In this document: positions 15,783 through 57,104 of the stretch, piece by piece
Numbering within the stretch: the stretch's first letter is position 1
Layout: each line of letters opens with the position of its first letter
Assembly (NCBI GenBank): GCA_963844965.1
Contig: CAWJQC010000004.1
Location: 64,001-128,000 of the forward strand
Length of the DNA: 64,000 bases
Direction: 5' to 3'
Origin: an uncultured bacterium
GTDB lineage: Bacteria > Patescibacteriota > Minisyncoccia > UBA6257 > 2-01-FULL-56-20
Translations under genes and position numbers: made by a program
Notes under the pieces: generated by a model
Databases searched by the model: none
The model's input: the letters and a program-made list of their open reading frames with translations, nothing else
What the model was told of the DNA's origin: nothing

Positions 15783-15896
15783 AAATTTATATTACAACAA
15801 TTTAATTTCTAAGTCCAAGCCCTGAATTAACAGAGAAATTCAAAACCGCCTTTTCGGGCGGCTTTGTTTCTGCGTAATTCCGCGTAGTTCCGCGCT

Positions 15897-31231: not shown

Positions 31232-33913
31232 ATGAGTGGGATAAAAATAAATCTTTCTCTCAGCGAAATCCCAGGCATCGGCCCGCGTTTTCTGGAACGG
31301 CTGGGAAAACTCGGCATAAAAACCGTCCGTGATCTCATTTATCATTTTCCGGCCCGCTACGAGGATTTCTCCCAGATATACAAAATTTCCGACGTTGAGC
31401 CGGGGGAACAGGTAACAATACGTGGCGTTGTTGAAGACACCAAACTGCGGCGGACTTGGAGAAAACACATGACAATCGCCGAAGCCCTGATCCGCGACGA
31501 TTCCGGAACGATACGCGCCATCTGGTTCAACCAACCATATGTTTTGAACACTCTGCGGGTCGGGCGCACGGCGAATTTCGCAGGCAAAATATCCATATCG
31601 GACGAGGACGAAATTTATTTGAGCCACCCGGCTTATGAAATCGTCGGCAGTCGGGAGTCGGGAACGGAGAAGCAAGAAACAAAACATACAGCGCGGCTCG
31701 TCCCCATTTATCCCGAAACGCGCGGCCTCACATCCAAGGGGTTGAGATATCTGATCCAGCCAATTCTGAAAAACAGCGAACAGCTGGAGGAATGGCTGCC
31801 GCCGGAAGTTCTGCGCGAAAATAATTTTCCCGAAATAAACCTTGCGCTCAGATCCATACACTTCCCCGAAAAAACCGAGGATGCTCTTGTCGCGAAAAAA
31901 CGCTTCACTTTTGAAAACCTGTTCCTGCTGCAACTCGCCAATCTTGAACAAAAATTGAAACTCGCGCGCGAAAAAGCGCCAGTGATCAAAACCGACATAG
32001 AACACCTGAAAAAAATGATCTCGGAACTGCCATACGAACTCACGTTTTCGCAAAAGAAATCATTGTGGGAAATCATCCAGGACCTCGCCAAAAAACAGCC
32101 GATGAACCGCCTGCTCCAGGGCGACGTGGGCTCCGGCAAGACGGTTGTCGCGGCGCTCGCCGCGGTAATTACCGCGGAAAACGGGCTGCAGACCGCGTTT
32201 ATGGCGCCAACCGAGGTTCTCGCGAGACAGCATTTTGAAACATTGAAAAAATTATTCGCCGGAATTCCCTCGATCCATCAACCCGTAGTTGGGCTTCTCA
32301 CGTCAAGCGAAGCAAAAATCCTCTACGCGACAGACCTTGAATCAAAAATCAAAAAACCGGAGTTGCAGGAAAAAATAAAAAACGGCGAGGTAAAAATAGC
32401 CATCGGCACGCACGCTTTGATACAAAAAGACGTGGCGTTCGGCAATCTTGCCTTTATCATCATTGACGAACAGCATAGATTCGGCGTCTCACAACGAGCT
32501 GCGCTCGTTCGCGGACAGACGCAGAATGATAATACGCGGACAGACGCTGAACAACTACTATACGAAAAAACGACGTTTGAGATAAGAAAAAGTCTGTTTG
32601 AGGTGAGAAAACAACTGGGCCTTGGTCATAAAGAAGTGGTGTATCAGAAAGCATTGGAGGAGGAGTTCAAGAAATCCGGTGTAATATTTGAGAAAGAAAA
32701 GAAAATTCCTGTCGTTTATAACAAGAAAAAGATTGGCGTTTATCAACCGGATTTTGTCATAGATAATGAAGTAATTTTGGAACTTAAGGCTCTTCCCTTT
32801 ATCGGCGGCATCGAAAAAAAACAGCTGTGGAATTATTTGAGGGGTTCGGATTACAAACTCGCGCTTATGGCAAACTTTGGACCGGAAAGATTATCCATAG
32901 AGCGGGTAGTATACGATATTGCGCGGAGTCGGCGGCTGTCAGCGTCCGGTCAGCAACTGTCCGCGCCTATCCCCCACCTCCTCTCAATGTCCGCCACGCC
33001 AATCCCACGCACGCTCATGCTCACCGTCTTCGGCGATTTGGATATATCGCTCATCACCGAACTTCCCGCCGGCAGAAAAAATATCGTAACAAAAATAATC
33101 CCCCCACGGGGCAGGAGCGAAGCCTATGAATTCATCCGCGGCGAAGTGAGGGCCAGCCGGCAGGTTTTTGTCATCTGCCCCCGCATTGACAAACCGCAGA
33201 CAGGCGCAGACCACACGCAGACAAACGCAGACAAGACACAGACAGACGCAGACAATTTTCAGCGGCTGTCTGCGTCAAGTCAGCGACTGTCCGCGTTAAG
33301 TCCACGTAAGTCCGCGTTAGTGTGGGAAGTAAGATCCGTGAAAGAAGAATTTGAAAAATTATCCAAGAAAATTTTTCCGGATTTGCGCGTCGCCATGCTC
33401 CACGGCCAGCTCAAGCCAAAAGAAAAAGCGGGTATCATGAAGGACTTCCGCAACTACAAAATAGATATTCTCGTTTCAACTTCCGTCGTGGAAGTTGGCG
33501 TGGACGTGCCGAACGCAACAATAATGATGATTGAAGGCGCCGATCGCTTCGGGCTGGCTCAGATCTACCAATTCCGCGGACGCGTGGGGCGCGGCGAACA
33601 CCAATCCTATTGCTTCCTGTTCACGGATTCGTCCGCCAAAACTACGCGCGAGCGGCTGCAGGCCGTCCTTGAAGCCAAGAACGGCTTTGAGCTCGCCGAG
33701 AAGGACCTGAAGATCCGCGGTCCCGGCGAATTCCTCGGCACGGCGCAGACCGGCTTTCCCGACACGGCGATGAGCGGCCTCATGAACCCGGAGCTCGTGA
33801 AAGCAAGCCGCGAAGCGGCGGCAAAAATCGTCCAAAAAGATCCGCTTTTCAAAAATTATCCGCTCCTGAAAACCAAATTAAACGAGTTCCGGAAGGAAAT
33901 CCACTTGGAGTAG
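31232..33913 (+). CDS. recG: ATP-dependent DNA helicase RecG carrying an inserted GxxExxY/PD-(D/E)XK nuclease-like domain (about 32500-32990) and a second short repeat-encoded insert (33180-33310)
   Basis: Wedge/OB N-terminus; helicase motifs GDVGSGKT, DEQHRFG, QxxGRxGR (YQFRGRVGRGEHQSY). Internal segment GHKEVVYQKALEEEF...YQPDFVIDNEVILELKA matches GxxExxY plus D-x(n)-ExK. Confidence 0.85.
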   Translation: MSGIKINLSLSEIPGIGPRFLERLGKLGIKTVRDLIYHFPARYEDFSQIYKISDVEPGEQVTIRGVVEDTKLRRTWRKHMTIAEALIRDDSGTIRAIWFNQPYVLNTLRVGRTANFAGKISISDEDEIYLSHPAYEIVGSRESGTEKQETKHTARLVPIYPETRGLTSKGLRYLIQPILKNSEQLEEWLPPEVLRENNFPEINLALRSIHFPEKTEDALVAKKRFTFENLFLLQLANLEQKLKLAREKAPVIKTDIEHLKKMISELPYELTFSQKKSLWEIIQDLAKKQPMNRLLQGDVGSGKTVVAALAAVITAENGLQTAFMAPTEVLARQHFETLKKLFAGIPSIHQPVVGLLTSSEAKILYATDLESKIKKPELQEKIKNGEVKIAIGTHALIQKDVAFGNLAFIIIDEQHRFGVSQRAALVRGQTQNDNTRTDAEQLLYEKTTFEIRKSLFEVRKQLGLGHKEVVYQKALEEEFKKSGVIFEKEKKIPVVYNKKKIGVYQPDFVIDNEVILELKALPFIGGIEKKQLWNYLRGSDYKLALMANFGPERLSIERVVYDIARSRRLSASGQQLSAPIPHLLSMSATPIPRTLMLTVFGDLDISLITELPAGRKNIVTKIIPPRGRSEAYEFIRGEVRASRQVFVICPRIDKPQTGADHTQTNADKTQTDADNFQRLSASSQRLSALSPRKSALVWEVRSVKEEFEKLSKKIFPDLRVAMLHGQLKPKEKAGIMKDFRNYKIDILVSTSVVEVGVDVPNATIMMIEGADRFGLAQIYQFRGRVGRGEHQSYCFLFTDSSAKTTRERLQAVLEAKNGFELAEKDLKIRGPGEFLGTAQTGFPDTAMSGLMNPELVKASREAAAKIVQKDPLFKNYPLLKTKLNEFRKEIHLE

Positions 33914-34179: not shown

Positions 34180-36625
34180 CTACTGCTCCATATGACCGAC
34201 AAGGGTGCATGTATAAAAGTTACCAGTGCATTGGGATGAATTAGTAACATCCCAACAAGTTGAATAAGTCTCCAGCGCGCCACTACAAGGAGTGGTATTA
34301 GCGCATGAACTGTTGTAGTAACGAATATAAGTCATATACTGCGGGCAGAAGTAAATCGGCGTCCCGCCTGTAACTTTAAGAGTGCCGGGAATGATGACGT
34401 TGCCGTTTGCTAGAACCTGTATAGCTGCTCCGGTTGTAGTAGCTGTACCAGTATTCGGCATACTGCCGCCAATACCGACGTTGCCGGCATAGTTGATGAC
34501 TAATTTATTTGATTCTGCCGCACTAGGATAATTTCCCACCATAAGCATGGCGCCCTGATTAACATCGCCCACATCGAGCAGCACCGCATCCGCATTGGTC
34601 GTAGCCGCGGTGCCGTAGAACGTGCCGGTATTGGTATCCCTGTTCTGCTCGAACTGGGTGCCGTAATCACCGGTGTTATACAAGAACGAATAGGTGGGAT
34701 TACTAAAATCGCTGTACATCTCAAGGCCGGGGCCGGTACCGGCAGTATTTGAATATGCATAAAATTGATAGTTGGCGGGCGCCGCCGCTCCCACCCCGAT
34801 TCCGGAGGTGAATAAACCTCCTCCAGTTACCGTCAGTTTCTGGGTCGGCGCCGTATTCCCGATGCCGACGTTGCCGGAGGAATTCCAAATACCGGTGCCA
34901 GGCATCGTAACGTTGCCAGTAAAGGTCGGGCTCGCTAAAAGCGCCGCTCCGGTAACCTGCGCTACCCCGTAGTCACCAGATGCCGCCACCACGGCTCCGG
35001 TTCCGCCAAATACCGAGGTGACGCCGCCGCTCGGCCAAGCCGTGATGCAATTCGCCCCGGAGATGCAATATTGAGTGGCGTTTGCGGTAACCGTTGACGT
35101 ACAGAGCGTACCCTCCGCCTGAGTTTGTGAAATACCCACCGTAGCCGCCGGAGTTGGTGGCTAATCCATAAACTCCTACGCCGTTACCTGCCGCTGACTG
35201 TCCGGCAACCCCTACCCAGTAAGAAGCGCCGACCTGTCCGCCGAGAATCCCATTCGTTGTGGCGTTGCTATTATTTCCCGTTACCGAGCCGACCCATGAT
35301 GAATTGACGGCGCTCGTGAAACTGCCTACGCCAGCAACAACCAACGGATATGCCGGCGTCGTCGTCCCGATGCCGACGTTGCCGTTCGTGATGGAGAAAT
35401 ATGGACCACCCCCCATCCCAGTGCCAAGCGCCAAATTGAGGCCATAAGATTGTGACGTCAAATCAGCGTATGTAAATGCTCCGTTGCTGGTGGTGAACTT
35501 TATCCAATCTACGTTTGACCCGTTTGTATTGTCTAGCCGTAAGGTAGACGTACTTCCACTCTGAATATCAAGTTTTGCGACCGGCGCCGTGTTCCCGATG
35601 CCGACGTTGCCGTTGTTATTTATAAACAAGGCGGGTGACGCGCCGGATGAGTCAGAACCCTGAGTCAAAAAGGCCATTGGAGAACCGTTACTGCCGATCC
35701 GGGCCCAGTTCGCAACTGCTGCCGGTCCAAGCTGTAGCAAGGCATCGGTACCGTTAGATGTCAAGTCAAACTTGGCGAATTTTGACCCGTTCACGACATG
35801 CAACGTCGTTGCCGGCGACGCCGTCCCGATGCCGACGTTGCCGCCATATGCAAGCGTCATTATTTGGGAGTACCAACTGCTGGGGTTCTGATACCCAATC
35901 GTCAAGACCGAATTATCTGACGCTGGTGCAAAAACATACCCATTATTACTGCCAGCCATATCGCGGAGCTTGAAGGCTCCAAAGACATCAAGTGTATTTT
36001 GTGGTGACGGCGTCCCGATGCCGACCGAGCCCGAGAAATACCCGCCGCCGTAGACGGAGAGGGCCTGCGGCAAGTTGCTGGCGGAGGATGTGGTAACGCC
36101 CAGAGCGGAAGAAACAAACACACTGTGGGGGAACCCGTAGGGAACGCCGGAATCGGCCTCTAGAGAATTGAACACCGCGGGCGTGACATAGCCGGCGTTG
36201 ACGGTCCCGTTAAAATTGCCGTGGATCGTGCCGTTCACGTCAAGCTGGTAGCCAGGCGACGCCGTCCCGATGCCGACAGAACCGTCATTGCGCACGACAA
36301 GTATGGGCGACGAATTCGGATAAAGGATCTTCAATGTGTAATTCGCGGCATCAGCGGACGAAGAAGCAACGATGAGGAGTTTGGTTTCCGGCAGAGGCGT
36401 GGGCGTACCAACGCCCAGATTCCCAGCCGCATTAGTGCTTACCGCTCCCGAACCGAAACCGGGGGTGGGAGGAGGAGAGGCAAACGCGTAGTAGGTAGTA
36501 GGTAGTAGGTAGTAGGTAGTAGCGAGAATGACGAAAAACAAAACGTGCGGCGCAAAACTCGGACGCACACCGTAAAACTTGCGGCGGAGCTTTTGCTGTT
36601 TTTGGAACAAATCTGCGTCCATCAT
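34180..36625 (-). CDS. Giant Sec-secreted fibre-like surface protein 1 (about 815 aa; frameshift near 35100-35160 joins ORF-track pieces 34973..36625 and 34180..35139)
   Basis: Signal peptide MMDADLFQKQQKLRRKFYG...VLFFVILATTYYLLPTTYYAFA; dozens of GNVGIGT(A/T)xP repeats; Cys-rich C-terminal domain; N-terminus and a ~150-aa internal block identical to the 40555..43680 paralog. Confidence 0.7.
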
Positions 36626-36859
36626 AATAATTTACTACCTACTACCTACTACCTACCGCTTTTAATTGTTTCGGGGCGACAATCTCATAGCTTTATTATA
36701 TAAGAACAGGGAAAGATATGTAGAAAGGGGTGTGCATAGGCGCGAAAACTGCCCGAGCGGCGGCCGCAAATTTCCCGGCCATCCGGGATATAAAAAAGGC
36801 TCTCGCGAGGAATTGCGAATTGCGAATCCTCACGAGAGCCAAACATACCGGAGGGGAAT

Positions 36860-40554: not shown

Positions 40555-43500
40555 TCATTTCAGAAGAGCGTCAACTTTTTCTTGGAGCGCGGCGTTCTGC
40601 GCCTGAAGAGCGCTGATCTCTTGTTGCTGCTCCTTGATGGATTCTATCATCGGCGCGATAAGCCCAGTATAATCCAGACCAAGGGTTCCGCTCGCGTCAG
40701 TTTCCACCAACTGCGGGAAAACCGTCTGTACATTCTGCGCGGTTAAACCGAGCTGCTCTCCACTGCCCATCAGTTTTGTATCTTTCCATTCAAAGGAAAC
40801 CGGCGTCAGTAACTCAAGCTCCGCAAGCGAACCCGACAGTGGAACTATATTCTTCTTCAAACGCTCGTCGGAGCTATTTATCCACTGCCCAGCATTGTTT
40901 GTATACTCGCCGTGGGCTCCCTGAAAGTCATACGTACTGCCGGAACCATAGACGCCGATTGCAGCAGTTGAAAACACCCCATACCCTGCGGGATTACCGA
41001 AGTATCCAGCGGAACCGTTCGCGCCCGCGGTATCCGAATATCCTTCCACCCCAACCCCAGTACCAGCGTTGTAGCCATAGACGGCGGGAAGACCATTACC
41101 AGTACCGTAGCCATAGACCCCATACCCAGTCGCACCAGCAGTGCCATAGACACCATACATAGAGCCGGTGCCATAAATCCCTGCCCCAGCTTGCCCGGCG
41201 CCACCGACGCTTAATGTTGACGCCGGTGCCGTCGTCCCGATGCCGACGTTGCCGTTCGTGATGGAGAAATATGGACCACCCCCCATCCCAGTGCCAAGCG
41301 CCAAATTGAGGCCATAAGATTGTGACGTCAAATCAGCGTATGTAAATGCTCCGTTGCTGGTGGTGAACTTTATCCAATCTACGTTTGACCCGTTTGTTTT
41401 GTCTAGCCGTAAGGTAGACGTACTTCCACTCTGAATATCAAGTTTTGCGACCGGCGCCGTGTTCCCGATGCCGACGTTGCCGTTCGTGATGGAGAAATAT
41501 GGACCACCCCCCATCCCAGTGCCAAGCGCCAAATTGAGGCCATAAGATTGTGACGTCAAATCAGCGTATGTAAATGCTCCGTTGCTGGTGGTGAACTTTA
41601 TCCAATCTACGTTTGACCCGTTTGTATTGTCTAGCCGTAAGGTAGACGTACTTCCACTCTGAATATCAAGTTTTGCGACCGGCGCCGTGTTCCCGATGCC
41701 GACGTTGCCGTTGTTATTTATAAACAAGGCGGGTGACGCGCCGGATGAGTCAGAACCCTGAGTCAAAAAGGCCATTGGAGAACCGTTACTGCCGATCCGG
41801 GCCCAGTTCGCAACTGCTGCCGGTCCAAGCTGTAGCAAGGCATCGGTACCGTTAGATGTCAAGTCAAACTTGGCGAATTTTGACCCGTTCACGACATGCA
41901 ACGTCGTTGCCGGCGACGCCGTCCCGATGCCGACGTTGCCGGAACCTAAAATTGTCACGAGATCCGTTTTCGAAGAAGCGCCCGTTTTTTCACTAAACTG
42001 GAAAGCGGTGGTGGGATTGTTATAAACATTATAAAAATCAACTTCTGCATTTCCTCCCGTATAATTCCAACCGACGGCCAGACCACCAAGGCCATCACTC
42101 ACCGGTAAAGATTGCGTGTTATATGAAGTTTTCAGGAACCCACCCTCAACATCGAGCTTGTAACCTGGTGCCGCCGTCCCGATGCCGACCGAGCCCGTGA
42201 AATATCCGCCGCCGTAGACGGAAAGCGCCTGCGGACCTACGGCACTGCCCGAAGTGGCAACCGCCAACGAAGAGGAAACGACGACGCTGGCCGGGAAAAG
42301 ATAATTGCCCGTGCTGACAACGTTTGAACCGAAATACCCGGCCGCCACGTTGCTGGCGTTCACGGTGCCACCCGAAGAAGCGCAGTCGGAACCGGTGCCA
42401 GAAACAACGCCCGCAGCGCTTACGTGCAAACACTGGATAGAACCGCTGATTCCAGAAACAGTAAGGGTGTTGGCACTTGCGCCACTGCTGAAAGTTTGAA
42501 GCGCGGTCCAGGTGTTCGCATGTCCAAGATTCAATGCGGCGGACACGGCGCCCGCGGTTGGAGATATCGTTAGAGTTCCGACGCCGCTGTCGCTGACCGA
42601 GGTTACGCTGCCGCCTGCCGCAGACCAAGAAAGCGTGCCAGCGCCGTTGTTCGTGAGCACAGTACTTGCACCGCCTTGCGCGGCCGGCCAGGAATAAGTG
42701 ATACTGTTGATTTTCGCGATGTTGCCGTTATTGTCAACCTGGAATTGACTGCTCGCGCCGACGCTAAAAAGCGACGCTGGCCCCGTCGTCCCGATGCCGA
42801 CGTTGCCGCCCGCAGTTATCCTCATTCTCTCAGCAGCTCCAGCTGAAGTGTCAACCCTAAATATAAGACCATTCGTCGCAGCGCTCGCCTTGACATCTAT
42901 AAACCCTCCCCCAGAAGAATCACTACTGAAAAGTCTCATGCCGTTAACACCGACGCTCGTATCACCTCCAAAGAATAGGTTGCCGTTGACGTTGCCTGCT
43001 GCCATAGGCAAAAGCATATTTGACGTAAGCTGAAGCTGTTGAGTTGGGTTCGCCGTCCCGATGCCGACGTTGCCGCTGAAATACCCGCCGCCGTAGACGG
43101 AGAGGGCCTGCGGCAGATTGCTCGCGGTTGTCGTTGTGATTCCAAGACCGGAAGTGATAAACACGCTGTGGGGAAACCCGTAGGGAACGCCGGAATCGAG
43201 TTGGAGAGAGTTAAACACCCCGGGCGAGATGTTGCCGGCGCTTACGAGACCGCTCACGCTGCCATAAATGGACATGCCGCTGGCGAGATTCACACTGCCG
43301 GCATTAGTAAGATTTGAAGTGCCGATACCGACGGTGCCATCGTTGCGCACGACGAGAAGCGGAACAGCAGAGCCGGGCTGGACAACCTGCAGAGCGAAAT
43401 TTGAGCTGTCGGTTGACGAAGCCACAATCAGAAGCCTCACGTTGGCGGAGGGTGTTGACGTTCCAATGCCCAGATTGCCCGCGGCGTTAACGCTTATCGC

Positions 43501-43680
43501 TCCCGAACCGTAACCGGGAGTGGGAGGAGGAGAAGCAAACGCATAGTAGGTAGTAGGTAGTAGGTAGTAGGTAGTAGCGAGAATGACGAAAAACAAAACG
43601 CGCGGCGCAAAACTCGGACACGCACCGTAAAACTTGCGGCGGAGCTTTTGCTGTTTTTGGAACAAACCTGCGTCCATCAT
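40555..43680 (-). CDS. Giant Sec-secreted fibre-like surface protein 2 (1041 aa) with peptidase-S74-type C-terminal intramolecular chaperone domain
   Basis: Same signal peptide as protein 1; GNVGIGT repeats; in-frame tandem 237-bp (79-aa) duplication at about 41237-41710; C-terminus NSSDERLKKNIVPLSG...GLDYTGLIAPMIESIKEQQQEISALQAQNAALQEKV, the S74 autoproteolysis motif SDxRLK plus a coiled coil. Confidence 0.75.
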   Translation of the reverse strand: MMDAGLFQKQQKLRRKFYGACPSFAPRVLFFVILATTYYLLPTTYYAFASPPPTPGYGSGAISVNAAGNLGIGTSTPSANVRLLIVASSTDSSNFALQVVQPGSAVPLLVVRNDGTVGIGTSNLTNAGSVNLASGMSIYGSVSGLVSAGNISPGVFNSLQLDSGVPYGFPHSVFITSGLGITTTTASNLPQALSVYGGGYFSGNVGIGTANPTQQLQLTSNMLLPMAAGNVNGNLFFGGDTSVGVNGMRLFSSDSSGGGFIDVKASAATNGLIFRVDTSAGAAERMRITAGGNVGIGTTGPASLFSVGASSQFQVDNNGNIAKINSITYSWPAAQGGASTVLTNNGAGTLSWSAAGGSVTSVSDSGVGTLTISPTAGAVSAALNLGHANTWTALQTFSSGASANTLTVSGISGSIQCLHVSAAGVVSGTGSDCASSGGTVNASNVAAGYFGSNVVSTGNYLFPASVVVSSSLAVATSGSAVGPQALSVYGGGYFTGSVGIGTAAPGYKLDVEGGFLKTSYNTQSLPVSDGLGGLAVGWNYTGGNAEVDFYNVYNNPTTAFQFSEKTGASSKTDLVTILGSGNVGIGTASPATTLHVVNGSKFAKFDLTSNGTDALLQLGPAAVANWARIGSNGSPMAFLTQGSDSSGASPALFINNNGNVGIGNTAPVAKLDIQSGSTSTLRLDNTNGSNVDWIKFTTSNGAFTYADLTSQSYGLNLALGTGMGGGPYFSITNGNVGIGNTAPVAKLDIQSGSTSTLRLDKTNGSNVDWIKFTTSNGAFTYADLTSQSYGLNLALGTGMGGGPYFSITNGNVGIGTTAPASTLSVGGAGQAGAGIYGTGSMYGVYGTAGATGYGVYGYGTGNGLPAVYGYNAGTGVGVEGYSDTAGANGSAGYFGNPAGYGVFSTAAIGVYGSGSTYDFQGAHGEYTNNAGQWINSSDERLKKNIVPLSGSLAELELLTPVSFEWKDTKLMGSGEQLGLTAQNVQTVFPQLVETDASGTLGLDYTGLIAPMIESIKEQQQEISALQAQNAALQEKVDALLK

Positions 43681-43735
43681 AATAATTTACTATCTACTAC
43701 TTACTACCTACCACCTACTACCTACTACCTACTAC

Positions 43736-44200
43736 TTACTGCTTCGCAGGCGGTCCCTGGATGGTGCCGCTTGCCACTTGCGAAGGAAGCTGCTGCGAAG
43801 GAAGTTGCTGTCCCGATGACTGAAGCGAAGAAGGGTTGGCGAATGCCTGCACAAGCTGACTGTCGTTGCGCAGGCTCGTCCAGAAAATCACCTGCTTGGC
43901 GTTCAAATGGACCTCGTCAACCGGGCCCCAGAAAGCGTTCTTGAGGGCGGAGAGTCCGAGCTGTGCCTGATTCTGCTGATTGACGCTCCTCTGCAGGAAC
44001 CAGACGTTTGTCAGACGCAGGGACGGGAACCAGCTCAGTTTGCCGAAATAGATATCACCGGTCGTAAGATAGACCGCCGAATACTCGGAAGGGCCAGCCG
44101 GATTTTTGGGAGACATGAGTTTCAAGCCGAGCCACAGGCCGAAAATCAGGACGACGAGCACAATGAGAACCAGGACAGCGATTAATTTTTTGGGCAACAT
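43736..44200 (-). CDS. Membrane-anchored hypothetical protein with Gln-rich C-terminus
   Basis: N-terminal TM LIAVLVLIVLVVLIFGLWLGL; SSGQQLPSQQLPSQ tail. Confidence 0.45.
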   Translation of the reverse strand: MLPKKLIAVLVLIVLVVLIFGLWLGLKLMSPKNPAGPSEYSAVYLTTGDIYFGKLSWFPSLRLTNVWFLQRSVNQQNQAQLGLSALKNAFWGPVDEVHLNAKQVIFWTSLRNDSQLVQAFANPSSLQSSGQQLPSQQLPSQVASGTIQGPPAKQ

Positions 44201-44933: not shown

Positions 44934-45797
44934 TTAGGTACAAGAAACGCTTGAAGTCGCAATCATGCCGCTGCCCGTAATATAAAGCCGATAGCAGGAA
45001 GCACCATTCTTCAGGATTATGCCGGACGCGCTATTGCTTATATATATATCTCCCCCGGCGACCTGAAGCGCCTGCGTCGGCTGCGAACCCATGTTCACGC
45101 CGGCGTAGCCGGTAAAATAAACATTATTTGAGCCGGGTAAGCCGAAATTGAGCACGCCGTTGACGTTACTCCAGTATTGCGTGGCAGTTCCAAGCGGCAG
45201 GCCGGTGGTTGACGATGGAAACACACCGGTATCAAAAGTCGCCGCATTCACGCGCGCAATCGCCGTCTGCAGTGCCTCCGAAAATTGCTGTGTCGCGTTC
45301 TGCGTATTGTTGGCCACAACGAATGAAACGCTCACGGAGTCGTGCCCCGGCGCGTTGGAACGCTTTATAAAAGTGAGGGAAGTAACGTTCACCCTCGGAG
45401 TTGTAAGCGGCTGCGGCGTGCCGGTAGCGGTCTGTTGCAAATATACCGTGCCAGGCGTACCGGAAGACAGATAAATGTAGGTCGGGTCCAACGAACTGGC
45501 TGCCATCCGCAACTTTAGGGTGCTCGTAGCGATATCCTGGTTTAACTCAACAAGACTTGAGCGTTCTATGTAATATTGGATCTGCTGCAACAGGAACTGG
45601 CTTTCTTGGTTCACCTCGGCGGCAGCCGACTGGCGGGATTGGATACGTATGACGGCGACCATCATCGTTATAAACGCAACCATGACTATTGCGAAGATCG
45701 CCGAAAAAGCAAGAAGTTCAATGATGGTGAAACCCTTCTTTGAACGGTAGGTGTAGTAAGTGGTAGGTGGTAAGTGGTAGGTGGTAAATTTCTTCAT
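44934..45797 (-). CDS. Type IV pilin-like / pseudopilin protein with extended heptamer-encoded leader
   Basis: KKGFTIIELLAFSAIFAIVMVAF is the class III signal (G-F-T-x-x-E) plus hydrophobic helix. It is preceded by TTYHLPPTTYYTYRS encoded by a (GGTAGTA)-type heptamer tract. Confidence 0.7.
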   Translation of the reverse strand: MKKFTTYHLPPTTYYTYRSKKGFTIIELLAFSAIFAIVMVAFITMMVAVIRIQSRQSAAAEVNQESQFLLQQIQYYIERSSLVELNQDIATSTLKLRMAASSLDPTYIYLSSGTPGTVYLQQTATGTPQPLTTPRVNVTSLTFIKRSNAPGHDSVSVSFVVANNTQNATQQFSEALQTAIARVNAATFDTGVFPSSTTGLPLGTATQYWSNVNGVLNFGLPGSNNVYFTGYAGVNMGSQPTQALQVAGGDIYISNSASGIILKNGASCYRLYITGSGMIATSSVSCT

Positions 45798-46187: not shown

Positions 46188-46331
46188 GTCTAAATTCTAC
46201 TATATCATACTACCTACCACCTACTACATACTACTTACCGTGTCCGACCACCTCTCGCGTTTTCGGCGTTACCCAAAAGCGTCGCTCGCCTACGCTCGCT
46301 CCCTCACAACCTCTCGGTTTTGAGTAATTTC

Positions 46332-48005
46332 CTACACGGGAAAACTCCCGTTTTCCCGACCCCTTTCCCTGATTTTGGGCGTCACCCAAAATCCCAACCG
46401 CCATTTCCCTCCCAACATCAATCTGGTCTGCGCTTCAAGACCTGGCAACGCGCCAAAGATTATGAGCGTCAGCGGTATAAAAATCCACTGAAGAAAATAA
46501 ATGAGGTAGTGCCGCGCGCGGAACCAGCGCGGGCGCGGAGGCAAGAGCAGAATACCTAAAATCGCCGAACTTGCGATGCCTATCATGGAAAGCGAGACGA
46601 TGAAACGCGCGACTTGCGGCAGACTGTAAGAAAGGAGCGTGTAGTTGAAACGCCTGCCGCCGATGAACACCGGCAGCCACCCCAACGCGAAGATCATGAG
46701 GGAATTCGTCGCCCAAGAATGGAAACCTTCAAGGATATTGAAGGACCAATACCATTTTTTTCTTTTCGGAATTTCCGGGTCGCGCCGGAAGCCGTCCAGA
46801 AGATACGGAATATTTTCCGCGCCCCATCCCCAGCGCCGCTGTTGCCTGTAGATATTTTTCATCGTGGCCCAGAAAGTCGGCGCCGCGGGCGCGTCCATGG
46901 AAACCGGGTAAAGAAGGGGCTCAACGCGAAAATCGCCGTGATAGTGGAGATAGCACTGCCAAAAAATCCTTGAGTCCTCGGAGACAACGTCCTTATGCCA
47001 AAAACCGACGTCAATCAGCGTTTTCAGGGGAATTGACTGCGAAGAAAAAGAGGTCAGACGTTCCGGGCGCGACTGCTGCATCATCTGCCAGAAGGTTGAC
47101 GAAAAAGAAACGACGCGCGCCAAAGCCGGCGTCTCGTAAACGTTGTTCATGAAAAGCGGCACCGGCTGGTAAATCGCACGCTCGCGATCCTCCGAAGACA
47201 AAAAAACGTAGGCAAGCCGCCCGAAATATTCCGGGAAAACCTGCGTGTCAATGTCAAAAACCGACACTAAGATATTTTCATATCTTAACGCGGACTTACG
47301 CGGACTTAACGCGGAACTACGCGGAAAAACTTCTGCATTAGTCTGCACTTGCCCGCCTAAATTTCCTTCGGAAACTTTGGCGGGTAAATCTGCGTTAGTC
47401 TGCGCATTGACCAATGGGTCAATTATTAATTCTTTGGCGTGTGCCGCCGCCCACGCCTCATTGGAACCTTTGCCGGGAATTTCACCGGCTAAATTCCGCG
47501 GATGGACAGTGACAAGAAACCTGAAAAATTTATCGGCGAATTCTTTTTTTATTTTTTCGGCGACCGCTCTGGCGTCTTCCCCACCCGCTTCCTCCGTCGC
47601 CAGCACGACCAAAAGCTTATCCAGCGGATAATTCACGCGAACCAAGCTCTCAAAACTTCCGCGAACCACTTCATAGGGCTCTTTGTACATCGGAAGAATA
47701 ATAAGGTGATACACTTCCGACCATGACAATGACTTATGACGATGACCGCTCAAATTATTGTTATCGTTATTGTCATTTGTCATAGTCCGCAATTTTTCCA
47801 GCCAATCCACTCTCAGGTTTTTCCTCATCGCCGAAAAAGTTGAGCGCAAGTGCAGAGAGAGATAAATCGTTTTCAGGAGCCAGTAGATGTCAAAGAGTAT
47901 GATAAAAACCGCGACGGCGGCGGGCAGCTTCCACGACAGAAAGACCATCAAAAATAAAGTGAGCCAGGCAAGACCTCCGGGAAGAATTTCAAAAAAACGG
48001 TGCAT
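46332..48005 (-). CDS. Membrane glycosyltransferase family 2 (processive-type, QxxRW motif) with an in-frame repeat-element insert at about 47270-47420
   Basis: N-terminal TMs; LVVLATEEAGGED, FDIDTQ (DxD-like), QQRRWGWG, C-terminal TMs. The insert encodes QTNADLPAKVSEGNLGGQVQTNAEVFPRSSALSPRKSAL. Confidence 0.65.
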   Translation of the reverse strand: MHRFFEILPGGLAWLTLFLMVFLSWKLPAAVAVFIILFDIYWLLKTIYLSLHLRSTFSAMRKNLRVDWLEKLRTMTNDNNDNNNLSGHRHKSLSWSEVYHLIILPMYKEPYEVVRGSFESLVRVNYPLDKLLVVLATEEAGGEDARAVAEKIKKEFADKFFRFLVTVHPRNLAGEIPGKGSNEAWAAAHAKELIIDPLVNAQTNADLPAKVSEGNLGGQVQTNAEVFPRSSALSPRKSALRYENILVSVFDIDTQVFPEYFGRLAYVFLSSEDRERAIYQPVPLFMNNVYETPALARVVSFSSTFWQMMQQSRPERLTSFSSQSIPLKTLIDVGFWHKDVVSEDSRIFWQCYLHYHGDFRVEPLLYPVSMDAPAAPTFWATMKNIYRQQRRWGWGAENIPYLLDGFRRDPEIPKRKKWYWSFNILEGFHSWATNSLMIFALGWLPVFIGGRRFNYTLLSYSLPQVARFIVSLSMIGIASSAILGILLLPPRPRWFRARHYLIYFLQWIFIPLTLIIFGALPGLEAQTRLMLGGKWRLGFWVTPKIRERGRENGSFPV

Positions 48006-54306: not shown

Positions 54307-57104
54307 ATGCCCGAAGAATTTCCTACGCGCTACGACATAAAGGAAGTTGAAACGAAAATCTACGACCTATGGGAAAAGTCTGGGTTTTTCAATCCCGATG
54401 TTTGCGTTGAAAAAGGCGCGACGAAACCGGACGCCGAACCTTTTTCCATCGTCCTGCCGCCGCCGAACGTAACCGGCACCTTGCACATCGGCCACGCCTT
54501 TGAGGACGCGATCCAAGACACCGTTGTCCGCTACGAGCGCATGCGCGGCAAGCGGACGCTCTGGGTTCCCGGGACCGACCACGCCGCCATCGCCACGCAG
54601 GCGAAAGTGGAGGAACTTCTGCGCAAGGAAGGGAAAACGAAATACGACCTCGGCCGGGAGGAATTCCTGCGGCGCGTGAACGAGTTCGCCAAAAATTCTC
54701 ATGACATCATAATCCGCCAGATAAAACGGCTCGGCGCTTCGCTTGATTGGGGCCGCGAGGCATATACGCTTGATGAAAAACGAAATCTCGCCGTCCGCAC
54801 CGCCTTTAAAAAAATGTACGACCTCGGCCTCATTTACCGCGGCGATCGTATCGTGAACTGGGACCCGAAGCTACAGACCACCGTCTCCGACGACGAGGTG
54901 GAATGGATAGACGAAACGACGCCTTTCTACTATCTGAAATATGGGCCGTTCGTCATCGGCACGGCAAGACCGGAAACGAAGTTTGGCGACAAATACGTCG
55001 TCATGCATCCGGACGACGAACGCTATAAAAAATATAAACACGGCGAAAAGATAGAACTTGAATGGATAAACGGGTCGGTCACGGCAACAATTATCAAGGA
55101 TAAGGTCATTGACGTGAATTTCGGCACGGGCGTGATGACAATCACACCATGGCACGACATGACGGACTTTGACATCGCGGAAAGGCATCGCCTGGATAGG
55201 GAGCAGATAATCGACCTGCGCGGCAAACTGCTGCCCATCGCCGGCGAATTCGCCGGAACGCCTATCGCCAAGGCCCGGCCGCTCATTATTGAAAAACTAA
55301 GAACAAAGGGTCTCGTGGAAAAGATTGACGAACATTACGCCCATCGCGTCGCCACGAACAGCCGCGGCGGCGGCCTCATCGAACCGCAGATCCTCAAACA
55401 ATGGTTCGTCAAGGTAAACTCCAAGTTCCAAATCCCAATTTCCAACCTAAAAGGGATAAAAAGCGGCCAAGAGGTGACGCTCAAGGAACTTATGAAAAAA
55501 GTCGTGGAGTCGGGGCAAATAAAAATCATACCCGGACAGTTTGAAAAAATTTACTATCATTGGATAGACAACCTGCGCGACTGGTGCATCTCGCGCCAGC
55601 TTTGGTTCGGGCACAGAATTCCGGTGTGGTATTGCCTCGCCTGCGGCGAGCCGCAAGTTGAACCGAAAATAAAATCGCGATGGTTCCTGGTGCGGCACGG
55701 AGAAACAGACTGGATCAAAGAGGGGCGGCACATGGGACATAAAGAGGTTCCCATGAATGAAACCGGCAAGCAGCAAGCGATGGTAGCCGGCGAACGGCTC
55801 GCAAACGAAAAAATTGATCTGATAATTTCTTCCACCACCATGCGCTGCAAAGAAACCGCCGAAATTATCGCGAAAAAACTGGGTGTCAAAATTATTTTTG
55901 ACGAACGTCTGCGCGAGCGCGGCAGTGGCGAATGGGAAGGACTGCTGCATGCGGAAATCAGGGAAAAATACAAACCTCTGGAGCAAAAATATGGACCGAG
56001 GAGTGGAACAAGCGCGCGCGCTATGAATTCAAACCGCCGGGAGGAGAAAATTGGCTGGAACTTGAAAAGCGCGTAATTCAATCGTTCAAAGAGCACAAAC
56101 TTCGATACGCCGACAAAAATATCGCGATTGTCACCCACGCCGGTCCGATCAGGATCCTGGAAAAAAATCTTAAAAACAAATCATTTGAAGAAGTGGTGGG
56201 ATTAATACCCGAGAATGCCGAGATTGCTAAGCTTTCAATCGCAACTGCTTCCTGTAAAAAATGTGGCAGTGATACTTACGAGCAGGATCCCGATACTCTG
56301 GATACCTGGTTCTCCTCCGCTATGTGGACGTTCTCAACTCTCGGCTGGCCTGAAAAAACCTCCGACCTCAGAACCTACCATCCAACCTCTTTGATGGCGC
56401 CGGGGTATGAAATCCTTTTCTTCTGGGTGGCGCGGATGATACTCATGAGCGGCTGTCTTTTGGGAGAAATCCCCTTCCGCACGGTTTATCTCCACGGCAT
56501 TGTGCGCGACAAGCAGGGCAAGAAATTCAGCAAATCCAGCGGTCACGCGCTTGACCCCCTGGAACTAGCCGACAAATACGGAGCGGACGCCCTGCGCATG
56601 GCTTTAATTGCCGGAGCGGCGCCGGGAAACGACGTGCAATTTGACGAGAATAGGGTCAAGGGCTACAGGAATTTTTCAACCAAGATATGGAACGTAGCGC
56701 GGTTTGTTTTACTAAACAAACCGCCGCAGACAGACGCTGACAAGACGCGGACAGCCGCGGACATTGCTGGCCGACCAGAGATAAAGGAGTTTGAGGCAAT
56801 TAAATCGGAAATAACGAAACATCTTGATGAATACGAACTGCATCTCGCAAGCGAAAAGATTTACCACTACTTCTGGCACACTTTCGCCGACAAAATAATT
56901 GAACAGGAAAAAGCCAACCTGCGGACAGCCGCCGACAAGACGCAGACAGACGCAGACATTGCGAGACGGGCAGAATCCTATGCCCTACTGGGATACATTC
57001 TCGTCGGTTCGCTTAAACTACTCCACCCTTTCATGCCGTTCGTAACAGAAGAGATTTATCAAAAATTTGAACTAAATAAGCTTCTCTTGACCGAAAAATG
57101 GTAA
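54307..57104 (+). CDS. valS: Valyl-tRNA synthetase with an inserted histidine-phosphatase (PGAM-like) domain; 1-nt deletion in an A6 run near 55987-55993 splits it into two ORF-track pieces
   Basis: PPPNVTGTLHIGHA (HIGH), GKKFSKSSGH (KMSKS), VLDTWFSS. Between WYCLACGE and CKKCGSD lies a ~190-aa block: FLVRHGETDW...SSTTMRCKETA...GSGEWEG...AIVTHAGPIRIL, the RHG histidine-phosphatase signature. Frame repair CAAAAATATGG to CAAAAAATATGG restores ...KPLEQKIWTEEW... Confidence 0.85.

What the first reader, a model, noticed from the sequence alone, without database searches (positions are those of the whole stretch)
32500..32995. recG carries an in-frame GxxExxY / PD-(D/E)XK nuclease domain bounded by inverted arms of a 9-nt tandem repeat
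Inside RecG, between helicase motifs and without breaking the frame, lies about 130 aa: GHKEVVYQKALEEEF...GVYQPDFVIDNEVILELKALPF...LWNYLRGSDYKLALMANF. This carries the GxxExxY signature and a D...ExK catalytic triad. The insert is flanked upstream by CAGACGCAGAATGATAATACGCGGACAGACGCTGAAC (encoding QTQNDNTRTDAEQ) and downstream by the reverse-oriented version GCGGCTGTCAGCGTCCGGTCAGCAACTGTCCGCG (encoding RRLSASGQQLSAP). The organisation is terminal inverted repeats plus a nuclease cargo, always translated in-frame. That resembles an intein-free, in-frame mobile insertion domain rather than an intein (no Cys/Ser-Asn splice junctions) or an intron.
Basis: partly seen in the sequence, partly recalled or inferred. 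Interest (0 to 1): 0.85.

Follow-up and report, generated by a model that had tools for sequence, protein, structure and literature searches.

The report
In-frame mobile nuclease cassette inside RecG
The DNA-repair helicase gene recG of this Patescibacteria (candidate phyla radiation) genome carries a small nuclease gene, bounded by inverted repeat arrays and translated straight through as an extra protein domain. The same cassette sits in many unrelated essential genes of related bacteria and comes and goes between near-identical genes, so it behaves like a mobile element that needs neither an intron nor an intein.

Summary
RecG (31232-33913, 893 aa) carries a complete GxxExxY / PD-(D/E)XK domain (TIGR04256 E=1.5e-29) in the loop between helicase motifs II and III, flanked by inverted DNA arms. 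One correction: the arms are arrays of the motif CGC(A/G)GA spaced 10-11 nt apart (21-nt double period), not a 9-nt repeat.

- The same arms-plus-nuclease unit lies in frame in RecG, LepA, GatB, RtcB, DHFR, transketolase, glycosyltransferases and other proteins of Patescibacteria.
- It is present or absent between RecGs that are 90-93% identical.
- It was swapped as a block, with sharp DNA boundaries at the outermost motifs, between RecGs that are 94% identical.
- Cassette relatedness does not follow host relatedness.
- Catalytic residues are kept in about 99% of copies.

The arms are a DNA-level feature. Over 80 cassettes there are 215 forward and 0 reverse motifs upstream, and 164 reverse and 6 forward downstream, in all three codon phases. 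In the protein the arms are predicted to be disordered linkers. Cargo-less hairpin versions occur in the same RecG and in other genes of this window.

No intein, intron or published description was found. Mobility and nuclease activity are inferred, not shown.

The parts
31232..33913 (+). Host gene recG (893 aa), one uninterrupted reading frame through both insertions
   Evidence: ORF list. NCBIfam RecG equivalog NF008168, 765 bits above the 718 cut-off, and Pfam RecG_wedge, DEAD, Helicase_C, RecG_dom3_C. The AF2 model keeps the helicase domains confident.
32510..32551 (+). N arm: two CGCGGACAGACGC(A/T)GA units, i.e. forward CGC(A/G)GA motifs 10 nt apart. Encodes the linker ...GQTQNDNTRTDAEQ.
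   Evidence: the repeat finder D3 and I5/I8; motif scan. Predicted disordered, pLDDT below 50 at aa 429-440.
32552..32917 (+). Cargo: GxxExxY / PD-(D/E)XK nuclease domain (aa 441-562). Motifs GHKEVVY and PDF...ELK.
32929..32965 (+). C arm: reverse-complement units (TCGGCGGCTGTCAGCG ... TCAGCAACTGTCCGCG). Encodes ...SRRLSASGQQLSA.
   Evidence: the repeat finder D1, I5, I8. Predicted disordered at aa 564-577.
33188..33316 (+). Second element in the same RecG, without cargo: three forward 21-nt units directly followed by three reverse units (aa ~653-695, PQTGADHTQTNADKTQTDADNFQRLSASSQRLSALSPRKSAL)
   Evidence: TRF period 21. Inverted repeat I1, 47-nt arms. ssDNA hairpin -29.3 kcal/mol, z=-4.8. 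Disordered at aa 653-690. Present and variable in most relatives, including those without the cassette.
47284..47408 (-). Cargo-less arms inside a membrane glycosyltransferase-like gene (46332-48005, minus strand), at the exact site where the orthologue P0135 carries the full cassette
   Evidence: Hairpin z=-4.2. BLASTP alignment with P0135, 70% identity over the aligned C-terminal segment.
56725..56763 (+). Solo forward motif array, in frame in the C-terminal part of the valyl-tRNA-synthetase-like gene (QTDADKTRTAAD)
56921..56958 (+). Second solo forward array in the same gene (RTAADKTQTDAD)
15868..15894 (+). Solo reverse-orientation array in an intergenic spacer next to a terminator-like hairpin

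Best explanation
This is a selfish, in-frame DNA cassette. The unit has three parts: an array of CGC(A/G)GA motifs at 10-11-nt spacing, a 122-codon GxxExxY PD-(D/E)XK nuclease gene with no start or stop codon of its own, and the reverse-complement array.

It sits in surface loops of conserved genes, here the motif II-III loop of RecG. It is not removed at the RNA or the protein level. The ribosome reads through it. The arms become disordered linkers, and the nuclease folds as a separate domain hanging off a still-functional host protein.

Shown by comparison: the unit is gained, lost and exchanged as a block at fixed sites between near-identical host genes. It occurs in many unrelated host genes. 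It keeps its catalytic residues. It leaves or co-exists with cargo-less hairpin derivatives made of arms only, which resemble MITEs or Rickettsia palindromic elements.

Inferred: the nuclease makes the DNA break that starts copying, either at empty sites or at the arm-arm junction or cruciform of cargo-less hairpins. Recombinational repair from a filled copy then spreads the cassette. The arms serve as cis recognition and/or homology sequences. Their 21-nt period keeps any change in repeat number in frame.
For: Anatomy in the window:
- Searches give the reading frame, the domain and the arms.

The same unit splits other host domains:
- Hosts include GT2, Wzy_C, RtcB, DHFR, GatB_N, LepA GTPase, AsnB, P-type ATPase and transketolase.
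- 79 of the 80 best loci from GTDB species genomes are embedded in long open frames.

Turnover:
- 47 of 120 RecG homologues carry it at the same loop and about 70 do not.
- At least 16 gain/loss steps are needed on the host tree.
- It is present or absent between hosts that are 91%, 93% and 90% identical.
- P0033 and P0036 hosts are 94% identical, but their cassettes and arms are 59% identical. At the DNA level identity drops from about 90% to 50-70% exactly between TTCGCGGA and TCCGCAT.
- Host and cassette identities are uncorrelated: Spearman 0.05-0.06, Mantel p=0.07, and nearest neighbours agree in only 8 of 44 cases.
- A GatB cassette is 78% identical to LepA-type cassettes.

The arms are a DNA-level feature:
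- Over 80 cassettes there are 215 forward and 0 reverse motifs upstream, and 6 forward and 164 reverse downstream. Control regions 400 nt further out hold 2, 6, 11 and 18.
- The motif occupies all three codon phases, and different peptides are encoded (TQTNAD, ADKRGL, RINADE).

The nuclease is kept intact:
- Catalytic residues at D67, K79, E77 and E28 are retained in 87-88 of 88 RecG copies, 42-43 of 43 LepA copies and 32 of 32 in other hosts.

The insertion looks tolerated:
- The full-length RecG model has a confident helicase and a confident cassette, with arms below pLDDT 50.

Cargo-less forms occupy orthologous sites:
- P0083 in RecG and the window's glycosyltransferase-like gene against P0135.
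- A stand-alone intergenic copy still carries arm remnants.
Against: - No target-site duplication and no clean excision footprint could be defined.
- Cassettes mostly cluster by host site: the nearest neighbour is in the same host class for 83 of 88 RecG and 35 of 43 LepA copies. Two cassettes in one genome are only 57% identical. Movement is therefore mainly between orthologous sites, and ordinary homologous recombination after DNA uptake could achieve that without the nuclease.
- Near-universal retention of the active site is unusual for a purely selfish homing gene and could mean host benefit. The set is also biased towards well-scoring copies.
- Cassette GC follows host GC (r=0.79), which implies long residence.
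- No PD-(D/E)XK protein of this size is known to act alone as a transposase.
- Translation through the insert, nuclease activity and DNA cleavage specificity are all untested.
Confidence: 0.7

Rival explanations
1. Ancient fixed domain fusion. A nuclease domain was recruited once into RecG for a repair function, giving a helicase-nuclease, was inherited vertically and was lost repeatedly. The arms are merely linkers.
Against: - The same cassette with the same arms splits LepA, GatB, RtcB, DHFR, transketolase, glycosyltransferases and a P-type ATPase, where a repair role makes no sense.
- Host and cassette divergence are uncorrelated.
- A block was replaced between hosts that are 94% identical.
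- Sister RecGs that are 90-93% identical differ in presence.
- A RecG that is 90% identical carries the cassette in the wedge domain instead.
Confidence: 0.06
2. Passive passenger. The cassette is an inert, tolerated insertion that spreads between orthologous genes only by ordinary homologous recombination or transformation. The nuclease plays no part in its own spread, and the arms arise from slippage-prone low-complexity DNA.
For: Cassettes form site-specific lineages and same-genome copies are divergent. GC has drifted towards that of the host. No target-site duplication was found.
Against: - An inert passenger should accumulate active-site and nonsense mutations, yet about 99% keep E, D, E and K.
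- Exchange boundaries coincide with the outermost arm motifs rather than falling at random points in flanking host DNA.
- The arm motif, its orientation rule and its spacing are conserved across phylum-level diversity and across host genes, which slippage alone does not explain.
- Jumps to new host genes have occurred.
Confidence: 0.15
3. Domesticated module. The cassette began as a mobile element but is now kept because the embedded nuclease or the hairpin DNA benefits the cell, for example in defence, regulated inactivation of the host gene, or recombination hot spots that diversify loops.
For: The active site is conserved very strongly. Insertion sites recur in RecG and LepA across many lineages. 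The loop content at these sites is hypervariable.
Against: There is no match to known defence families. The element is dispensable in the closest relatives. No associated partner genes were seen. The host genes share no common function.
Confidence: 0.08
4. An intein, an intron or a translational-bypass element that is removed before a mature RecG is made.
For: Like inteins, it is inserted in frame next to a highly conserved motif of an essential gene.
Against: - Pfam finds no Hint or intein domain. There is no Cys/Ser at the N junction and no His-Asn followed by Cys/Ser/Thr at the C junction.
- No group I or II intron or other Rfam family matches.
- The RNA fold of the whole insert is not unusual, z=0.23.
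- The frame is open and the codons are under protein-level constraint throughout.
Confidence: 0.01

Closest known systems
Rickettsia palindromic elements (RPEs) and other in-frame intragenic MITEs (reviewed in PMC10969869; Ogata et al. 2000, from my own knowledge)
   Same: Short palindromic repeat elements inserted in frame into many unrelated, often essential, protein-coding genes. They are translated as extra peptide segments in tolerated surface positions and are multi-copy within a genome. The cargo-less hairpins here (33188-33316; 47284-47408) behave in this way.
   Different: RPEs carry no enzyme and no autonomous partner is known. Here an apparently autonomous form carries an intact nuclease gene between the arms. 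The arms are arrays of a 6-nt motif at helical-repeat spacing rather than a unique ~100-150-bp palindrome. The lineage is Patescibacteria, and there is no sequence relationship.
Inteins with homing endonuclease domains
   Same: An in-frame selfish insertion next to conserved motifs of essential genes, carrying a nuclease. Distribution among close relatives is sporadic, lineages are site-specific, and element and host phylogenies disagree.
   Different: There is no Hint splicing domain and there are no splice-junction residues. The insert stays in the mature protein. The nuclease is a minimal PD-(D/E)XK domain rather than LAGLIDADG or HNH. The insert is bounded by inverted DNA repeat arrays.
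Free-standing and intron-borne homing endonuclease genes, including PD-(D/E)XK ones such as I-Ssp6803I (my own knowledge; review PMC3943268)
   Same: A small nuclease gene that appears to propagate itself into a defined site of a conserved gene. The proposed spread by a double-strand break followed by recombinational repair is the same logic.
   Different: Known homing endonuclease genes avoid damaging the host gene by residing in a self-splicing intron or intein, or between genes. This one relies on being a tolerated in-frame domain. No cleavage data exist, and no significant sequence match to any solved homing endonuclease was found.
REP/REPIN sequences with their RAYT transposase
   Same: A single-gene enzyme flanked by inverted copies of a short repeat that is also dispersed through the genome as enzyme-less inverted pairs.
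   Different: REPINs are extragenic and RAYTs are HUH tyrosine transposases with their own expression signals. Here the repeats and the enzyme are intragenic and translated in frame, and the enzyme is a PD-(D/E)XK nuclease.
GxxExxY protein family (TIGR04256 / Pfam PDDEXK_3, PF13366)
   Same: The cargo is a bona fide member: full-length HMM match, signature motifs and the expected fold.
   Different: The family is annotated as small stand-alone proteins of unknown function (PMC3424549 lists it as 'Unknown'). The embedded Patescibacteria copies form a tight subgroup, about 55% identical to each other and about 41% to stand-alone copies, with no start or stop codons of their own.

Membership tests
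GxxExxY / PDDEXK_3 (TIGR04256, PF13366) | Full-length profile match above the curated cut-off | tested here: met
   TIGR04256: 102.7 bits against a cut-off of 35, profile positions 3-116 of 116. PF13366: 97.5 bits against a cut-off of 22.
GxxExxY / PDDEXK_3 (TIGR04256, PF13366) | GxxExxY motif and the PD...(D/E)xK catalytic residues | tested here: met
   GHKEVVY and PDFVIDNEVILELK are present in the window. E28, P66, D67, E77 and K79 are invariant in 30 cassettes and kept in about 99% of 165 embedded copies.
GxxExxY / PDDEXK_3 (TIGR04256, PF13366) | Restriction-endonuclease-like alpha/beta fold | tested here: met
GxxExxY / PDDEXK_3 (TIGR04256, PF13366) | Nuclease activity | not testable with these tools
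   No biochemical data for any family member was found in the searchable literature.
RecG helicase (host) | Equivalog HMM above cut-off, plus wedge domain and SF2 helicase motifs | tested here: met
   NF008168: 765 bits against a cut-off of 718. RecG_wedge, DEAD, Helicase_C and RecG_dom3_C are present. Motifs GSGKT, DEQH, SAT and QxxGRxGR are invariant in alignment A2.
Intein | Hint domain (splicing blocks A, B, F, G) | tested here: not met
   No Hint or intein Pfam family among the 11 hits on RecG or the 2 on the insert. The fold of the insert is a nuclease only.
Intein | Cys/Ser at the N junction and His-Asn followed by Cys/Ser/Thr at the C junction | tested here: not met
   The junctions read ...VRGQ|TQND... 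and ...QLSA|PIPH.... No such residues are conserved in 47 RecG carriers.
Group I / group II intron | Ribozyme RNA structure, with the host frame interrupted | tested here: not met
   No Rfam match at E<=1 apart from sub-threshold miRNA-like hairpin hits on the cargo-less element. The frame is continuous.
In-frame palindromic repeat element (RPE / intragenic MITE type) | Palindromic or terminal-inverted-repeat structure | tested here: met
   Inverted arms. ssDNA hairpins with z=-4.8 and -4.2 for the cargo-less copies. Orientation rule: 215/0 upstream and 6/164 downstream over 80 cassettes.
In-frame palindromic repeat element (RPE / intragenic MITE type) | Multiple copies inserted in frame in unrelated genes of one genome | tested here: met
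   In the window: RecG (two sites), the glycosyltransferase-like gene, the ValRS-like gene (two arrays) and one intergenic array. That is 6 arrays of at least 3 motifs, against 0.01 in shuffles. All 5 cargo-less pairs found in other loci lie in open frames.
In-frame palindromic repeat element (RPE / intragenic MITE type) | Non-autonomous: no enzyme encoded | tested here: not met
   The RecG copy at 32510-32965 encodes an intact nuclease. Only the cargo-less derivatives fit this feature.
In-frame palindromic repeat element (RPE / intragenic MITE type) | Target-site duplication | tested here: inconclusive
   No duplication is visible when filled, empty and cargo-less RecG sites are compared. The flanks are too diverged for a firm negative.
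Homing endonuclease gene | Sporadic presence at one defined site of a conserved gene, with element and host phylogenies in disagreement | tested here: met
Homing endonuclease gene | Cleaves the empty allele and is copied by repair | not testable with these tools
   Requires biochemistry or genetics.
Homing endonuclease gene | Neutralised by residence in a self-splicing intron or intein, or between genes | tested here: not met
   The cassette is embedded in frame without any splicing element. One stand-alone intergenic relative exists, L080.
Terminal-inverted-repeat DNA transposon | Encodes a recognised transposase (DDE, HUH, serine or tyrosine type) | tested here: not met
   The only encoded function is a 122-aa PD-(D/E)XK domain.

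The most novel reading that the evidence does not exclude
This may be a third way, besides introns and inteins, for a self-propagating nuclease gene to live inside essential protein-coding genes. The cassette is never removed. It is built to be translated through: it has no start or stop codon, its arm arrays have a 21-nt (7-codon) period so they stay in frame and encode disordered linkers, and the nuclease is a compact self-folding domain. It drives its own copying by cutting empty sites or the arm-arm junction of cargo-less hairpins. Those hairpins would then be both its decay products and its landing pads. This would make it a previously unrecognised class of mobile element that is widespread in Patescibacteria and that shapes loop insertions across their proteomes.
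Probability: 0.45. Interest if true: 0.9.

Novelty: new variant of a known kind. Interest (0 to 1): 0.8.

Why it matters
- Known mobile elements that sit inside genes avoid killing the host gene by RNA splicing (introns), by protein splicing (inteins), or by being tiny and enzyme-less (Rickettsia palindromic elements, MITEs). A nuclease-carrying cassette that simply stays in the protein would be a different solution.
- It would help explain why proteins of candidate-phyla-radiation bacteria contain many unexplained loop insertions.
- It would give a first functional context to the large, uncharacterised GxxExxY family: 6,896 cluster representatives at E<=1e-3.
- It offers a natural system of self-inserting, linker-flanked domains, and possibly a compact nuclease specific for a sequence or a DNA structure.
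- It matters for annotation. NCBI names several of these RecG proteins 'GxxExxY protein', which hides an essential repair helicase.

Tried and rejected
- **Target-site duplication or excision footprint.** I compared filled (window, L083, L084, L085), empty (L081) and cargo-less (L082) RecG sites at the DNA level. No duplication could be defined.
- **RNA-level removal.** The insert as a whole does not fold unusually (z=0.23). Only the terminal arms pair. There are no Rfam families.
- **Solved homologues by sequence.** Only non-significant T7 endonuclease I matches, E=0.28-0.4. Fold searches give generic PD-(D/E)XK neighbours (Cas4, Dna2, lambda exonuclease, Hjc) that do not fix a substrate.
- **Defence-system membership.** No PADLOC match. 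PHROGs gives only a weak 'endonuclease' hit, E=6e-4.
- **Phage carriage.** IMG/VR holds only distant relatives, at most 40% identity.
- **Base composition as a sign of foreign origin.** The cassette has lower GC than the host in 77 of 77 loci, but it follows host GC (r=0.79) and is Lys/Glu/Ile-rich, so this is not diagnostic.
- **Uptake-signal idea for the motif.** The hexamer GCGGAC/GTCCGC is only about twice as frequent as expected in the window, and much of the excess lies in the arrays. Rejected.
- **Internal start codon that would give a free nuclease.** The only ATG in the N arm is out of frame (read directly).
- **Literature.** Eight searches found no description of the cassette (GxxExxY, PDDEXK_3, PF13366/TIGR04256, and in-frame, palindromic or homing terms combined with CPR, Patescibacteria or Parcubacteria).
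Full report
**What is in the window**

One open reading frame, 31232-33913 on the + strand, encodes an 893-aa RecG. It scores above the curated cut-off of an NCBIfam RecG equivalog (NF008168, 765 bits against 718). It has the wedge, DEAD, Helicase_C and RecG C-terminal domains.

Close relatives have a 23-46-residue loop between helicase motif II (DEQHRFGV) and motif III (SMSATPIPRT). This protein has about 149 extra residues there. The centre of the insert (aa 441-562, nt 32552-32917) is a full-length GxxExxY / PDDEXK_3 domain. TIGR04256 gives E=1.5e-29 over profile positions 3-116 of 116, and PF13366 gives E=8.5e-28. The motifs GHKEVVY and PDF...ELK are present.

The domain is flanked by 32510-32551 (CGCGGACAGACGCAGA ... 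CGCGGACAGACGCTGA) and by the reverse-complement units at 32929-32965. The repeat is not 9 nt: it is the motif CGC(A/G)GA recurring every 10-11 nt, giving a 21-nt, 7-codon double period. The whole insert is about 149 aa, not about 130.

**Not an intein and not an intron**

Pfam finds no Hint or intein domain. The junctions (...VRGQ|TQND......QLSA|PIPH...) lack the Cys/Ser and His-Asn-Cys/Ser/Thr residues. No Rfam family matches the region apart from sub-threshold microRNA-like hits on a neighbouring hairpin. The RNA fold of the insert as a whole is unremarkable, z=0.23.

**More copies of the arms in the same window**

The same RecG holds a second element at 33188-33316. It has three forward 21-nt units directly followed by three reverse units and carries no cargo. 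As single-stranded DNA it folds into a long hairpin of -29.3 kcal/mol, z=-4.8.

A membrane glycosyltransferase-like gene (46332-48005, minus strand) has arms without cargo at 47284-47408, with hairpin z=-4.2. The C-terminal part of a ValRS-like gene has two solo forward arrays at 56725-56763 and 56921-56958. One solo array lies in an intergenic spacer at 15868-15894.

Arrays of at least three motifs occur 6 times in 64 kb, against 0.01 in shuffled sequence. There is only one GxxExxY gene in the window.

**The same unit in other genes and genomes**

An exhaustive HMMER search with the insert found 6,896 cluster representatives at E<=1e-3. Many of the best 150 are long proteins with the match in the interior. 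Reading them and scanning ten against Pfam shows host domains split in two by the cassette: glycosyltransferase family 2, O-antigen ligase, RtcB, dihydrofolate reductase, GatB, LepA, asparagine synthase, a P-type ATPase and transketolase. In each case arms of the same kind flank the domain: N side ...TQTNAD..., C side ...SQRESAS....

A scan of one genome per GTDB species found at least 477 relatives. All but one of the 80 best loci are embedded in long open frames, mostly RecG (motif II-III loop) and LepA (G domain, before LIDTPGH). By record title they come predominantly from Patescibacteria metagenome-assembled genomes. One of the 80 is a stand-alone copy between nusG and rplK that still carries arm remnants and uses an ATG inside the N arm.

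**The arms are a DNA-level feature, not a peptide-level one**

I counted motifs in the 120 nt on either side of 80 cassettes:

| Region | CGC(A/G)GA forward | Reverse complement |
|---|---|---|
| Upstream flank | 215 | 0 |
| Downstream flank | 6 | 164 |
| Control, 400 nt further upstream | 2 | 6 |
| Control, 400 nt further downstream | 11 | 18 |

The motif falls in all three codon phases in the N arm (73, 55 and 87 occurrences). The encoded peptides accordingly differ between insertions (TQTNAD, ADKRGL, RINADE, MNADE).

Other arm families exist, and each pairs with its own reverse complement. One encodes SELxEK ... FGxFGxNSGxSDR. Another is built on GACGAC/GTCGTC.

In an AlphaFold model of the full RecG, the helicase and the cassette core are confident. 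The arms (aa 429-440 and 564-577) and the cargo-less element (aa 653-690) are below pLDDT 50, consistent with disordered linkers and a disordered loop.

**Evidence for turnover**

- Among the 120 nearest RecG homologues, 47 carry the cassette at this loop and about 70 do not. Two carry it in the wedge domain instead.
- On a neighbour-joining tree of the host part only, at least 16 changes of state are needed. Random labels need 36 on average.
- Carriers and non-carriers can be 91% (P0014/P0019), 93% (P0076/P0129) or 90% (P0042/P0053) identical in the host part.
- The window's closest host relatives, P0019 (79%) and P0034 (75%), lack the cassette.
- Among 44 carriers, host identity and cassette identity are essentially uncorrelated: Spearman 0.06, Mantel p=0.07. 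The nearest host neighbour is the nearest cassette neighbour in only 8 cases.
- The clearest case is P0033 against P0036. The hosts are 94% identical, but the cassettes with their arms are 57-60% identical. At the DNA level identity is about 90% up to TTCGCGGA, falls to 50-70% through arms and cargo, and returns to over 90% after TCCGCAT. In the same pair the second, cargo-less hairpin has also been exchanged, for one from a different motif family.
- Cargo-less or half forms occupy the RecG site in P0083, P0040 and P0084.
- The window's glycosyltransferase-like gene has arms only, exactly where its orthologue P0135 has the full cassette.

**Limits on that reading**

Cassettes cluster mostly by host site. 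The nearest neighbour is in the same host class for 83 of 88 RecG copies and 35 of 43 LepA copies. LepA cassettes reach 80% identity across genomes. The RecG and LepA cassettes of one genome are only 57% identical. Movement is therefore mainly between orthologous sites, as in homing. Jumps to new genes are occasional: a GatB cassette is 78% identical to LepA-type cassettes.

Mean identity within the RecG class (0.55) equals that between the RecG and LepA classes (0.55). Both classes are well separated from stand-alone family members at about 0.41. No target-site duplication could be defined. Cassette GC is below host GC in 77 of 77 loci but correlates with it (r=0.79), so composition does not settle the question.

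**The nuclease**

An alignment of 30 cassettes from different hosts has invariant E28, P66, D67, E77 and K79. Over 165 embedded copies these residues are kept in about 99%. The set is biased towards well-scoring sequences.

**Most likely mechanism**

Shown by comparison:
- A discrete unit (arm array, nuclease, inverted arm array) resides in frame in surface loops of conserved genes.
- It is gained, lost and replaced as a block.
- It keeps an intact active site.
- It co-exists with cargo-less hairpins.

Inferred:
- It is read through by the ribosome, because it has no start or stop codon of its own and the only ATG in the N arm is out of frame.
- The nuclease starts copying by breaking empty sites or the arm-arm junction or cruciform of cargo-less hairpins.
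- Repair from a filled copy spreads it, with the arms acting as recognition or homology sequences.
- The 21-nt period keeps expansions and contractions of the arms in frame.

I put about 0.85 on 'mobile or recently mobile in-frame element' and about 0.4 on the specific nuclease-driven route. Overall confidence in the stated explanation is 0.7. The rivals are a fixed functional fusion, a passive passenger moved by ordinary recombination, a domesticated module, and an intein or intron. They are weighed in their own entries.

**Comparison with what is known**

The cargo-less hairpins work like Rickettsia palindromic elements and other in-frame MITEs (PMC10969869). The cassette works like an intein-borne or free-standing homing endonuclease gene, but it lacks any splicing device. 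The pairing of an enzyme gene flanked by inverted repeats with dispersed enzyme-less repeat pairs recalls RAYT/REPIN. The cargo is a true member of the GxxExxY family, which the PD-(D/E)XK survey lists as of unknown function (PMC3424549).

Eight literature searches found no description of this arrangement. The library lacks most subscription-journal papers, so prior description cannot be excluded. I rate it a new variant of known kinds (in-frame palindromic elements, homing nuclease genes). There is a substantial chance that it deserves to be called a class of its own.

Noticed in passing
window 54307-57104 (+): The ValRS-like gene is split into two overlapping ORFs, 54307-56076 and 55932-57104. 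Between ...VWYCLACGEPQVEPKIKS and CKKCGSDTYEQDPDTLDTWFSS... it contains what reads like a histidine-phosphatase (PGAM-like) domain (RWFLVRHGETD ... THAGPIR). That domain is itself broken by the frame change. This would be another domain insertion in an essential gene, with no CGCRGA arms, and either a frameshift or a sequencing error.
   Followed up: no
L086 3560-3860 (contig carrying P0003): A LepA gene carrying the cassette has an in-frame TAA directly after the C arm (...[19 protein letters not shown]...). The gene was therefore called as two ORFs. This could be a pseudogene, an error, or a split or read-through gene.
   Followed up: partly
window 32556-32565 and 32907-32916: The first and last codons of the nuclease core form a 10-nt direct repeat, TACTATACGA / TAGTATACGA, encoding LLYE and VVYD. 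Both peptide ends are conserved family-wide, so this may be protein-level conservation rather than a duplication.
   Followed up: no
P0053 and P0069 (RecG homologues), aa ~160-281: These two RecGs lack the cassette in the motif II-III loop but carry one, with arms, in the wedge domain before ...KHTGRLVPVYPET. P0053 is 90% identical in the host part to P0042, which has the cassette at the usual site.
   Followed up: partly
window 47335-47405 (-), L082 (P0083 RecG loop): Cargo-less elements are not just arm against arm. They contain an extra central hairpin: CCCGCCTAAATTTCCTTCGGAAACTTTGGCGGG in the window's glycosyltransferase-like gene, and CCCTGCCTGCCGGCAGGCAGG in L082.
   Followed up: no
RecG homologues, region aligned to window aa 643-716; L084 against L085 nt ~1960-2100 of the gene: The second RecG loop carries hairpin elements from at least three different motif families in different relatives: CGCRGA, GACGAC/GTCGTC, and one encoding SELxEK...FGxFGxNSGxSDR. 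These are swapped between genes that are about 90% identical. A further low-identity patch lies at nt ~901-960 of the L084/L085 alignment.
   Followed up: partly
window 36488-36522 / 36633-36656, 43544-43577 / 43688-43740, 45746-45786 / 46208-46238: Perfect heptanucleotide tandem repeats (GTAGTAG / TAGTAGG) are paired about 100-450 nt away with TACTACC runs, at the 5' ends of large repetitive surface-protein genes (encoding ...TTYYLLPTTYY...). They are possible slippage or phase-variation tracts.
   Followed up: no
window 41223-41712: A 228-nt tandem repeat, 2.1 copies, 98% identical, in the region of the repetitive Gly/Thr/Asn-rich surface-protein genes.
   Followed up: no
hits P0164, P0177, P0193, P0206 and others: Many family members of about 250-275 aa consist of two GxxExxY domains in tandem, apparently outside the embedded Patescibacteria subgroup. 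This suggests the domain works as a dimer.
   Followed up: no
name column: Several cassette-bearing RecG proteins are named 'GxxExxY protein' in NCBI and JGI records. The insert therefore masks the annotation of an essential helicase.
   Followed up: no
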